A DNA stretch of 64,000 bases, taken from assembly GCA_019358935.1 (NCBI GenBank), contig JAHHIK010000025.1, forward strand, positions 15,717-79,716. Direction: 5' to 3'. This stretch comes from Tolypothrix carrinoi HA7290-LM1 (lineage in GTDB: Bacteria > Cyanobacteriota > Cyanobacteriia > Cyanobacteriales > Nostocaceae). The translations under genes and the position numbers were made by a program. Positions 48,169-50,952 of the stretch are shown piece after piece. Numbering within the stretch: the first letter of the stretch is position 1; each line of letters opens with the position of its first letter. The notes beneath the pieces were generated by a model. The model searched no databases and was not told the origin of the DNA. It saw only the letters and a program-made list of their open reading frames with translations.

Positions 48169-48240
48169 GCCGATGTGGCTCAGTGGTAGAGCACTCGATT
48201 CGTAATCGAGCGGTCACGGGTTCAAATCCCGTCATCGGCT
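48169..48240 (+). tRNA. tRNA-Thr(CGT)
   Basis: GCCGATG acceptor / CATCGGC, D arm GCTCAGTGGTAGAGC, anticodon arm CTCGA-TTCGTAA-TCGAG, T arm ACGGGTTCAAATCCCGT. Confidence 0.97.
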
Positions 48241-48287
48241 TTAATAAAAGTATTGTTGAATAGTTAAAGTTTTACACATATTGTACA

Positions 48288-49703
48288 GTAAACTACCTAC
48301 ACCGACCTGAGTACAGGTACGGTGTAGGCTTTTAGTAGCCCAGAAGAGTCTGTGCTGAGATTACAGTACAAACCGTTCGAGCCTCCAGGCTGGTTTACAG
48401 ACAGCCCCAATAATGCAATCATCTTTGCTCCGTTCAAATCCGCGTCACAAGATAATTCACAATTGCCGCACTTGAACAACTTTTGCGACCGTAACCCAAT
48501 GTGTAGACATTGATGGCACGTTTGACTCGTGTAGGCAGGGGGGACGGCAACAACTTCTACGCCGTCCCTCAACCCTTTGTATTCCAAAAACATCCGCAAC
48601 TGGTAGAACGCCCACGAGTTACTTCTACGGCGCTCTGTCTTGTTTCGTGGTTTTTGATTTGTCCTTTCACGAATACCAGTTAAGTTCTCAATGGCTACAA
48701 GAGCCTGCTCGTGCTTGGCTTGCTGAATGATTGTCTTAGAAATATTGTGGTTTACCCACGATTGAAATCGTCTCTCGCGCACGGCAGTCGCTTCAAGTCG
48801 GCAAAGCCGCCCAACGCGCTGCCTCCCCGATAGCCGTACCAAGACTTGCCGACATCTACGCCGACTAGAAATGAGTGCGTGTGGAAGCTTTTTTTTGGAG
48901 AGAGGCTCTTGTCTTGCTATATTTATCTCTGGTTTCGGTTAACTGTTTCCCGCTCCACGAGTTTCCATTGCTGGTTACGGCAATGTCGCGCCGCCCAAAA
49001 TCAACCCCAATAACTTTATTGGTTGGTTGCGGATCAGGAACTTCATCTTTTAATTGAATGTGGATGTAGTACTGACCATCGCGGTGTTTACATAATTGAG
49101 CAGAAGTCGGTTTTCTGCCCTTGAGTTTGCCACGTTGATAGTTACCAGCATCTATCTTGACGTGTTCCCGACCTTCTAATGTGGTCAGGCTAACCGTCCA
49201 ATCTTTTTCCCTGAATGCAAAAATTCTGGCATCATAATCGGCAGATGTTGGCTTAAACGCCTTAACGGGTTTTCCTGCTCGTTTAGCTCTAACAGCTAGG
49301 TTGGCGCTCAACCCAAATTTGGCTCTCAAGTCTTCGTAAACAACGTTTTGAATAGTTGTCTTACTGGTTATCTGCGGCTTGATAACTTCGTTTGTGTAGT
49401 TACAAGCAGCAGCAAAAGCATGAAGAACTTTTTCTAGCTTTTCCGACTGCATTGGCATAGGGTTGAGTTTGCTTTCCTAGCGTCAGTACTTGTTCCATGA
49501 GTTCGACCTACTCACTTGTGACTATAATTATAGACTACAATTCTTCGTTTTGTGTTTCCGGAGATTGTTAAAAACTTAACTATCCCCACTCCCTCAACAA
49601 CCTACGGTTGTTATTGGTCGAGGGATGTTGCGTTTTTAACCCGCAATACAAGCTCGCCACTGAACGGAGTACCGTTACAGTGGGAGCCTCCTTGCGGAAA
49701 TAG
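48288..49703 (-). mobile_element. tnpB-only IS200/IS605-family element inserted within the Tn7-like left end
   Basis: removing it restores TGTACA|GTGACTAATT; no TSD; subterminal hairpins with TACT loops at both ends; boundaries ambiguous by 2 bp. Confidence 0.82.
48297..49498 (-). pseudogene. tnpB: RNA-guided endonuclease TnpB, frameshifted
   Basis: MEQVLTL start; VIGVDFG (RuvC-I), AIENL (RuvC-II), CHQC/CGNC zinc finger, DADLNGA (RuvC-III); frameshifts near 49475 and 48870; 45-bp repeat insertion. Confidence 0.88.
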
Positions 49704-50291
49704 GTGACTAATTATTTGTCGTCGGTAACAGATTAATGTCGTTGTGACAAATTATTGTCATAAAACTAGTAATTCGTTTCCATATGTATTGGTGACAAAT
49801 TATTGTCATCTTTTGTGAAAAGCAACAATTTTATATAGAGCTTAGATAGATTTAAATCCCTATTATAAGCTTTTGAATTCAAAAAACTCTTTAAAGCAAT
49901 CATGCAAATTTAAATATATATTGTCATTGCGAGTGTAGCGTTCGCACATGAAGGAGCCGGATAGTAGAGAAGCGTCCCGAAGGAAAGCGATCGGAAGTTC
50001 CTCAAACGTTTGTTCGATGGCTACGCGAAAGCGATCGCGCTTTAACAGCGCCAACACCAGCAAAAGTCTGTACAATTTGATTATCTAACACGGGCGCGAT
50101 GGCGAAACGCCCGCTGGAAGCGATCGCTCACAATCACAAAGGTAAAACTACGCGGTAGCAAGCGGTGAACTTTGCGGGTGAGAAACGCCATTGAGTAAGA
50201 TTTACCGCTACCTTGAGTATGCCAGAAAACTGTGTTACAGACAGCAAGAACGGGGTAGTATTATTTGTATGGATTTTTGGGGTTTGTGAAA

Positions 50292-50753
50292 ATGACAGCA
50301 CCTCAACCAATAAAATCTCTGAATTCTCCTCTTTACGACCAAGATTTTTATCTGTGGATAGAGACGACTGCAAAACAATTAAAAGAAGGCAATTTTGCTG
50401 AAGTTGATTTAGCAAATTTGATTGAAGAGATTGAATGCATGGGGAGAAGTGAAAAAAGAGCGTTAAAGAGTAATTTAGTAGTTGTTTTAATGCATTTATT
50501 GAAATATAAATATCAGCCATCTCAACGTACTAATAGTTGGTTATCTACTATATTTTAACATCGGCAGAGACTTGAAGAATGTTTAACGGAGAGTCCTAGT
50601 TTAAACAACTATTTGCCGGAAGTATTTATAAATTGTTATCAAAATGCTAGAAAACAAGCAGCTATAGAAGCTGGTTTGTCCCTTCCTACTTTTCCGGTTG
50701 AGTCTCCTTTTACTATTGATGAATGTCTGGATGAAGATTTTTTGCCAGAGTAA
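50292..50753 (+). pseudogene. DUF29 family protein with a single nonsense codon
   Basis: LYDQDFYLW, DLANLIEEIE.MGRSEKR, HLLKYKYQP; TAA at 50556-50558; the frame continues HRQRL..SPSL..FPVESPF..FLPE*. Confidence 0.85.
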
Positions 50754-50952
50754 TTCAATGTTATTTGCCAGAAGCGCGGGAGGAGTAAGTCACGGGCTTC
50801 ATTAAGGCTATTATTATATTTTTTTAAACATTCAAGCCGGACAACAATTTGTCACAATGACAAATAATGTGTCACTGTACACATATTGTCGCGCTCAGTT
50901 GCGCCGTCAGATTAAAAGGGGTTATAAGAACGAAGCCGCAATTAAGCAGGCT

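What the first reader, a model, noticed from the sequence alone, without database searches (positions are those of the whole stretch)
48277..50886. Miniature non-autonomous CAST V-K-type transposon at tRNA-Thr, with exact ends and TSD
Seen: both ends carry TGTACA(GTGAC) and are flanked by an exact CATAT duplication. The tRNA-proximal end has three tandem plus one distal GTGACAAATTATTGTC-like sites; the other end keeps only two. The element starts 41 bp after the tRNA, with 59 bp between the GTT in the tRNA T-arm and the first element base (66 bp from an alternative GTC). Exactly 17 nt lie between that GTT and the end of the acceptor stem. Known: Cas12k CASTs use GTN PAMs, insert about 60-66 bp downstream left end first, make 5-bp TSDs, and home to tRNAs with short delocalized spacers. 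Inference: this is an RNA-guided homing insertion that has since lost tnsB/tnsC/tniQ, cas12k, tracrRNA and array, leaving about 1.2 kb without the nested IS. It could be a deletion relic or a MITE-like CAST parasite mobilised in trans.
Basis: partly seen in the sequence, partly recalled or inferred. Interest (0 to 1): 0.85.

Follow-up and report, generated by a model that had tools for sequence, protein, structure and literature searches.

The report
Dead CRISPR-guided transposon stump at tRNA-Thr
This is the collapsed, probably immobile remnant of a CRISPR-guided (Cas12k) transposon that once inserted behind a threonine tRNA gene in a cyanobacterium; such remnants are an ordinary fate of these elements.

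Summary
A Tn7-like element with an exact 5-bp CATAT duplication starts 59 bp behind a GTT PAM in tRNA-Thr(CGT), and relatives show the empty site. The RNA-guided origin is well supported. Its left end is 87-88% identical over about 250 bp to cas12k-bearing type V-K CASTs at the same tRNA, and three of these carry the predicted 17-nt homing spacer, one as an exact match. The 'MITE-like parasite' reading is poorly supported. The element is single-copy, and its right end keeps 2 of 5 TnsB sites. An IS200/IS605 element splits the left terminus from all its TnsB sites. The genome has no cas12k or V-K tns genes. The interior is scraps of an hsdR gene, found as cargo behind cas12k in related CASTs, plus a DUF29 pseudogene. 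Similar left-end stumps are common at this tRNA across the family. Verdict: a deletion relic of a V-K CAST; ordinary. One side observation may deserve its own look: 31- and 51-bp end-only CAST scars, stacked in one genome behind repeated copies of the target duplication.

The parts
48169..48240 (+). tRNA-Thr(CGT), attachment-site gene
   Evidence: ARAGORN
48220..48222 (+). GTT PAM (T-arm), 59 bp before the element
   Evidence: same 59 bp in the intact CAST of G384
48223..48239 (+). 17-nt anchor protospacer
   Evidence: exact match to the anchor spacer of the G384 CAST; 1 and 2 mismatches to those of G183 and G230
48277..48281 (+). left copy of the 5-bp target-site duplication CATAT
   Evidence: single TATAT in empty sites of G001, G007, G010
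48282..48287 (+). left-end terminus TGTACA, cut off from its TnsB sites by the IS
48288..49703 (-). IS200/IS605-family element (1416 bp), tnpB only, inserted 3' of TCAC on the minus strand, no duplication
   Evidence: PF01385 and PF07282, NF040570; flank GTGA shared with copies on C34 and C24
48865..49458 (-). tnpB 5' part (frame broken)
   Evidence: same break in the C34 copy
48297..48842 (-). tnpB 3' part (zinc-ribbon region)
49704..49808 (+). rest of the V-K left end: four TnsB-type sites (about 49704-49720, 49725-49740, 49744-49760, 49792-49808)
   Evidence: same positions 7/28/47/95-96 as intact left ends of G183 and G230
49809..49947 (+). left-end interior homologous to intact CASTs; homology stops inside a short palindromic repeat, before the anchor spacer
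   Evidence: 87-88% over element positions 1-244 (G183) and 1-249 (G230)
49996..50027 (-). hsdR scrap, about aa 933-942 of a 1070-aa HsdR
50040..50230 (-). hsdR scrap, aa 296-350 (helicase motif I), interrupted by a short insertion
   Evidence: tblastn 89-94% identity; TIGR00348 for the full homolog
50292..50753 (+). DUF29 pseudogene, in-frame stop at 50556-50558
   Evidence: PF01724 on both halves
50840..50881 (-). truncated right end: terminus plus two TnsB-type sites (positions 7 and 27); the three internal sites are gone
50882..50886 (+). right copy of CATAT

Best explanation
A full type V-K CAST (Cas12k, tracrRNA, TnsB, TnsC, TniQ, with type I restriction-modification cargo) homed to tRNA-Thr(CGT) with a 17-nt anchor crRNA. 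It read the GTT PAM in the T-arm, inserted left end first 59 bp downstream, and duplicated CATAT. The geometry, the duplication and the empty site are shown; that this ancestor carried that guide is inferred from its closest intact relatives. Internal deletions then removed the anchor spacer, array, tracrRNA, cas12k, cvkR, most cargo, tniQ/tnsC/tnsB and the inner three right-end sites, leaving about 1.18 kb (shown by comparison; order of events not shown). An IS200/IS605 element landed on the TCAC motif that the first TnsB site presents on the minus strand, separating the terminal TGTACA from all left-end sites (shown). It is now inherited vertically and is most likely immobile (inferred).
For: Of the 29 best non-self left-end matches examined (99 of 389 family genomes matched), 27 have a tRNA-Thr(CGT) called in the locus. 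Three of the 18 extended (G183, G230, G384) carry cas12k (NF038191 973-982 bits) and a truncated repeat plus the spacer; G384 also has TniQ, TnsC, TnsB and a MerR regulator. The spacer pattern occurs in 4 of 389 genomes, all at such left ends. PAM-to-end distances are 55-66 bp in 34 of 36 loci, inside the published 46-82 nt (PMC9938897 section 6). The same hsdR lies directly behind cvkR-cas12k, pointing to the cas12k/left-end side as here, in G307, G282 and same-genus G005. No cas12k, V-K tns genes or array/tracrRNA in the own assembly, 99.65% complete. A second study (run X2) holds 49249-50916 with 3 differences, including 35 bases of the same right flank.
Against: The element keeps no anchor spacer, so its own guide is not seen. 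A genome-contig scan for the spacer returned 0, although genome search later found it exactly in G384, so the two collections disagree. The assembly is in 184 contigs, so a helper could be unassembled. No intact element with this exact right end was found: matches cover only its first 39-50 nt in 13 of 300 genomes. DUF29 was not seen inside any intact CAST examined; it is common at this locus in relics.
Confidence: 0.87

Rival explanations
1. MITE-like non-autonomous CAST: the 1.18-kb element arrived already minimal, mobilised in trans by a V-K CAST that supplied Cas12k, the tRNA-Thr guide and TnsBCQ; the IS came later.
For: Both termini and the duplication are intact; the left end is complete once the IS is removed. 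ShCAST strand-transfer complexes were assembled in vitro on designed DNA with only the first two sites of each end (10.1101/2022.10.12.511933, passages). 7 of 10 same-genus genomes hold cas12k matches. IS200/IS605 elements excise precisely (recalled), and the genome has 7 Y1 tnpA loci, so the left end could be restored.
Against: One copy only. No match spanning the internal junctions in 300 genomes or 72,556 plasmids. The right end has 2 of 5 sites. No V-K helper. The interior is broken cargo. Of 18 same-site left ends extended, 15 showed no cas12k-like ORF, so decay in place is the norm.
Confidence: 0.08
2. Same V-K origin, but the insertion was not directed by the GTT-PAM anchor: it used the GTC PAM (66 bp) or the RNA-independent TnsC pathway into AT-rich DNA.
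For: A GTC PAM sits 66 bp upstream. ShCAST has an RNA-independent, AT-biased pathway (10.1101/2023.07.14.548620, passages). The DNA behind the tRNA is AT-rich.
Against: All three anchors read in intact same-site CASTs start right after the GTT PAM. 34 of 36 loci cluster at 55-66 bp.
Confidence: 0.03
3. A non-CRISPR or type I, TnsAB/TnsD-type tRNA-targeting Tn7-like element.
For: Such elements target cyanobacterial tRNAs (PMC9881144, passages). The genome holds another Tn7-like end behind tRNA-Pro.
Against: The left end matches cas12k-bearing elements at 87-88% over about 250 bp with identical site spacing. TnsD-guided McCAST inserts 29 +/- 1 bp after its tRNA, against 41 here.
Confidence: 0.02
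4. The relic is kept because its TnsB sites give target immunity and plug the attachment site against new CASTs (an add-on to the relic reading, not an alternative origin).
For: An immobilised mini-Tn6022 with mutated termini strongly blocked new insertions (PMC11014353, passages). V-K systems seem to have immunity (PMC11406308, passages). Left-end stumps persist in many genomes.
Against: In 23 relic left ends, TnsB-site positions differ from consensus as often as inter-site positions (0.091 vs 0.093 per cell); several have mutated termini or lost sites. A count by variable columns gave P 0.02-0.03 but is confounded by truncations. G230 and G384 show newer CASTs inserted next to older end stubs.
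Confidence: 0.1

Closest known systems
[quoted passage not shown]
   Same: TGT-ended Tn7-like termini, 5-bp duplication, left end next to the tRNA, GTN PAM, 17-nt protospacer in the tRNA 3' end, PAM distance 59 bp, left-end site array, restriction-modification cargo
   Different: No cas12k, tracrRNA, array, anchor, cvkR or tns genes; right end cut to two sites; left terminus split by an IS
Degraded V-K CASTs (Hsieh and Peters, bioRxiv 2021.02.06.429022: 282 cas12k genes, 152 with a proximal tnsBCQ operon, loss ascribed to inactivation and degradation)
   Same: Decay in place at a tRNA attachment site with ends still recognisable
   Different: That survey started from cas12k, so fully cas12k-less stumps like this one fall outside it; this one keeps both termini and the duplication
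IS200/IS605 family (TnpB-only, non-autonomous member)
   Same: tnpB, insertion 3' of a short motif (TCAC) without duplication
   Different: tnpB frame broken, no tnpA; it is a passenger here
TnsAB/TnsD tRNA-targeting Tn7-like elements of cyanobacteria (PmcCAST, McCAST group)
   Same: Tn7-like element behind a tRNA
   Different: Different insertion distance (29 +/- 1 bp for McCAST); the end here matches cas12k-bearing elements

Membership tests
Type V-K CAST (ancestry) | TGT...ACA termini with 5-bp target-site duplication | tested here: met
Type V-K CAST (ancestry) | Left end homologous to cas12k-bearing elements, with their TnsB-site array | tested here: met
   87-88% over 244-249 bp; sites at 7/28/47/95
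Type V-K CAST (ancestry) | Left end faces a tRNA, GTN PAM 46-82 nt away, 17-nt protospacer | tested here: met
   59 bp, GTT, 17 nt
Type V-K CAST (functional element) | Complete right end | tested here: not met
   2 sites against 5 in 4 of 4 intact right ends scanned (those ends trained the matrix; papers count 4 sites for ShCAST)
Type V-K CAST (functional element) | cas12k, tracrRNA, CRISPR array, anchor spacer | tested here: not met
   none in element or assembly
Type V-K CAST (functional element) | tnsB, tnsC, tniQ next to the right end | tested here: not met
   only an unrelated Tn7-like operon on C24, 28% identical to V-K TnsB
Type V-K CAST (functional element) | RNA-guided transposition activity | not testable with these tools
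   needs an assay
MITE / non-autonomous parasite | Several copies at different sites with their own duplications | tested here: not met
   single copy; none in 300 genomes or plasmids
MITE / non-autonomous parasite | Intact transposase-binding termini | tested here: not met
   left terminus split by the IS, right end truncated
MITE / non-autonomous parasite | Autonomous partner in the genome | tested here: not met
   assembly 99.65% complete, 184 contigs
MITE / non-autonomous parasite | Mobilisable in trans | not testable with these tools
   needs an assay
IS200/IS605 (nested element) | tnpB gene; insertion next to a fixed short motif without duplication | tested here: met
   (same flank motif at 3 of 3 left-end copies)
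IS200/IS605 (nested element) | Y1 tnpA in the element | tested here: not met
   no such ORF in 48288-49703; 7 loci elsewhere

The most novel reading that the evidence does not exclude
The IS-free 1.18-kb element is a natural non-autonomous V-K donor: a two-site right end suffices, so it was delivered or can be moved in trans. It would be the large end of a series of end-only CAST derivatives down to the 31- and 51-bp fusions seen behind tRNAs in relatives. These would be made by a TnsB-dependent collapse that frees the attachment site for the next homing event, leaving a stacked record of serial insertions.
Probability: 0.1. Interest if true: 0.6.

Novelty: new member of a known kind. Interest (0 to 1): 0.24.

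Why it matters
As a relic it matters little. It adds a clean case of how V-K CASTs die at their tRNA landing sites, and it shows that cas12k-based surveys miss many past insertions (left-end stumps recur at tRNA-Thr(CGT) across the family). If the two-site right end were mobilisable, it would define a shorter donor end for CAST engineering and the first natural CAST-derived MITE that my searches could find. The fixed-size end-only scars would bear on the open question of how TnsA-less, resolvase-less V-K elements are resolved or removed in their native hosts (stated as unknown in PMC11406308).

Tried and rejected
Further mini-copies in the genome: none. Own-genome anchor spacer: with up to 2 mismatches only the tRNA itself and one unrelated site on C29. 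Spacer scan of genome contigs: 0 hits, not a reliable negative given. The tRNA-plus-TGTAYA pattern (13 of 389) missed genomes whose tRNA differs by one base. Of its 12 non-self hits I judge 7 real end stubs (G008, G009, G064, G077, G081, G142, G394), 2 unclear (G060, G333) and 3 chance (G041, G124, G377). Selection on relic TnsB sites: no clear support. HIP1-driven deletion: three CGATCG cores lie within 139 bp at the hsdR junctions (P about 0.0009 against the genome mean). But the homologous hsdR genes have no HIP1 at those places, and small repeats are known to insert into HIP1 (PMC4390886, passages), so this stays a lead. Metagenome scan for end-only scars: 22 hits, only 1 (L190, 52 bp) of CAST type. 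No RNA holder listed. No IS-free or empty allele was seen in contigs of X1 (possible source) or X2; the joints across the IS in X4 come from other, diverged left ends. Searches of the Ziemann supplements for 'Thr' and for the spacer gave nothing (two files unreadable). Strecker 2019 was not held, so published end-truncation data for ShCAST were not seen.

Full report
1. Observation. tRNA-Thr(CGT) spans 48169-48240. TGTACA starts at 48282 and ends at 50881, and CATAT flanks both sides. A 1416-bp IS200/IS605 element (48288-49703; tnpB halves hit PF01385, PF07282 and NF040570) sits exactly between the terminal TGTACA and the first TnsB site. It inserted 3' of TCAC on the minus strand, the flank also seen at its left-end copies on C34 and C24. 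Without it the element is 1184 bp. The boundaries are confirmed by empty sites: of 10 same-genus genomes, G001, G007 and G010 read straight through with one TATAT, and the reconstructed empty site agrees with G010 at 103 of 115 bases without gaps. G008 and G009 carry a different, degenerate end 4 bp further out.

2. What the ends are. The left end matched 99 of 389 family genomes (only 2 candidates were scored per genome). I examined the 29 best non-self loci; 27 contain a called tRNA-Thr(CGT). I extended 18 of them. Three hold cas12k, a CRISPR array and a truncated repeat followed by the 17-nt tRNA-Thr spacer: G384 (exact match to this window's protospacer; also TniQ, TnsC, TnsB, MerR regulator and restriction-modification cargo), G183 (1 mismatch) and G230 (2 mismatches). 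The other 15 showed no cas12k-like ORF in the first 12 kb or up to the contig end, judged from ORF lists by eye (five contigs ended within 10 kb). The spacer pattern is found in 4 of 389 genomes: those three and G247. Our left end is 87-88% identical to G183 and G230 over its first 244-249 bp and then breaks inside a short palindromic repeat, before the anchor. A site matrix trained on 30 sites from intact ends only gives positions 7, 28, 47, 95 here, as in the intact left ends. The right end has 7 and 27 only, against five sites in 4 of 4 intact right ends. PAM-to-end distance is 59 bp here and in G384, and 55-66 bp in 34 of 36 same-site loci. Ziemann et al. give 46-82 nt, a GTN PAM, a 17-nt anchor and the left end next to the tRNA (PMC9938897, section 6 and passages); Hsieh and Peters describe the same units (bioRxiv 2021.02.06.429022, parts 1-2 of 4).

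3. The interior. It holds two scraps of an hsdR gene on the minus strand (aa 296-350 and about aa 933-942 of a 1070-aa protein; 84-89% DNA identity to the best homologs) and a DUF29 gene with an internal stop. Of six hsdR regions extended, three (G307, G282, same-genus G005) have this hsdR directly behind cvkR and cas12k in the same orientation. A fourth (G013) has it behind a V-K-like left end at tRNA-Val without cas12k. Restriction-modification modules are the commonest defence cargo of Tn7-like elements (PMC8649781, passages). The interior is therefore the crushed cargo of a full CAST, not a purpose-built minimal core. Three CGATCG cores lie at the hsdR junctions, but the homologs lack them there, so HIP1-linked deletion is only a lead.

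4. Is there a helper or a second copy? No cas12k, no match to V-K TnsC, TniQ, Cas12k, CvkR, array or tracrRNA, and only a 28% match of V-K TnsB to an unrelated Tn7-like operon on plasmid-like contig C24. The assembly is 99.65% complete in 184 contigs. No second copy or site cluster exists. No genome of 300 sampled matched across the internal junctions or beyond the first 50 nt of the right end; plasmids gave 3 partial gene hits among 72,556 records. One independent study (run X2, depth 2) holds 49249-50916 with 3 differences, including 35 bases of the same right flank, with other sequence before 49249. That fits inheritance in place with further decay of the IS.

5. Mechanism. Shown: position, orientation, duplication, empty site, kinship of the left end with cas12k CASTs that carry the matching guide, loss of genes and of three right-end sites, and the IS in the terminus. 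Inferred: homing by the GTT-PAM anchor; decay by deletion after insertion; present immobility. The last rests on the structure paper placing the 8-bp terminus and adjacent first site in the catalytic core (PMC9371665, passages); the IS separates these. Against full certainty: two sites per end sufficed to assemble ShCAST complexes on designed DNA (10.1101/2022.10.12.511933, passages), the IS could in principle excise (recalled; 7 tnpA loci), cas12k matches occur in 7 of 10 same-genus genomes, and I could not see published end-truncation data.

6. Relation to what is known. It descends from a type V-K CAST but fails the tests for a functional one, and fails three of the testable MITE criteria. 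Degradation of V-K elements at tRNA sites is in print. Two earlier notes of this scan describe similar fossils in other genomes (unchecked). Searches for natural CAST-derived MITEs or end-only scars (listings only) showed no paper on them; the library lacks most subscription journals, and bioRxiv supplements were closed.

7. Side observation. Fusions of the first left-end site to the first right-end site, exactly 31 or 51 bp long, occur in 4 of 166 genomes searched: three just behind tRNAs (one of these read by eye as an intron-type tRNA-Leu) and one inside another CAST, none with matching flanks. In G384 two 31-bp units follow the right end, each after TCTTG, the duplication of the resident CAST. 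This reads like serial homing with collapse of earlier residents (inference). G064 has an imperfect 51-bp version at tRNA-Thr.

8. Verdict. A real, well-bounded deletion relic of a V-K CAST at tRNA-Thr(CGT): confidence 0.87, interest 0.24, new member of a known kind.

Noticed in passing
L100:1583-1649 (G384); L173-L176 (G061, G014, G131, G199); L024 (G064); L190: End-only CAST scars of 31 or 51 bp (52 in one metagenome locus): first left-end site fused to first right-end site. Two are stacked in G384, each after the resident CAST's duplication; isolated ones lack matching flanks.
   Followed up: partly
L064-L092: Left-end stumps 55-66 bp behind the tRNA-Thr(CGT) PAM in many genomes of genus g66 and others, often followed by the same unknown 145-aa gene; site positions are not better conserved than inter-site DNA.
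   Followed up: partly
L103 (G230), behind the right end: An older left-end stub directly follows the right end of the intact CAST, suggesting re-insertion in front of a relic; the flanks fit a 7-bp rather than a 5-bp duplication.
   Followed up: no
L099 (G384), left end: The left end of this otherwise near-complete CAST is also interrupted by an insertion sequence, about 0.9 kb, inside its first TnsB site.
   Followed up: no
window 48288-49703 and own genome C34:5832-7277: Both IS copies (84.5% identical) share the same tnpB frame break and the same inserted short repeat, so a tnpB-dead, tnpA-less lineage seems to have kept moving.
   Followed up: partly
own genome C6:70660-70705: A Tn7-like end a few bases behind tRNA-Pro(CGG), followed by type I restriction-modification genes; no far end found.
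   Followed up: partly
own genome C24:35213-39949: Tn7-like operon (915-aa transposase, TnsC, TniQ) on a plasmid-like contig, unrelated to V-K.
   Followed up: no
L020/L038 (G012): A different Tn7-like end 5 bp behind tRNA-Thr(CGT) with type I restriction-modification cargo.
   Followed up: no
L154:8531-9677 (G075): A similar hsdR motif-I scrap near a DUF29 gene behind gcvP, with different breakpoints.
   Followed up: partly
own genome C183:6577-9684: Array of 23 called tRNA genes.
   Followed up: no
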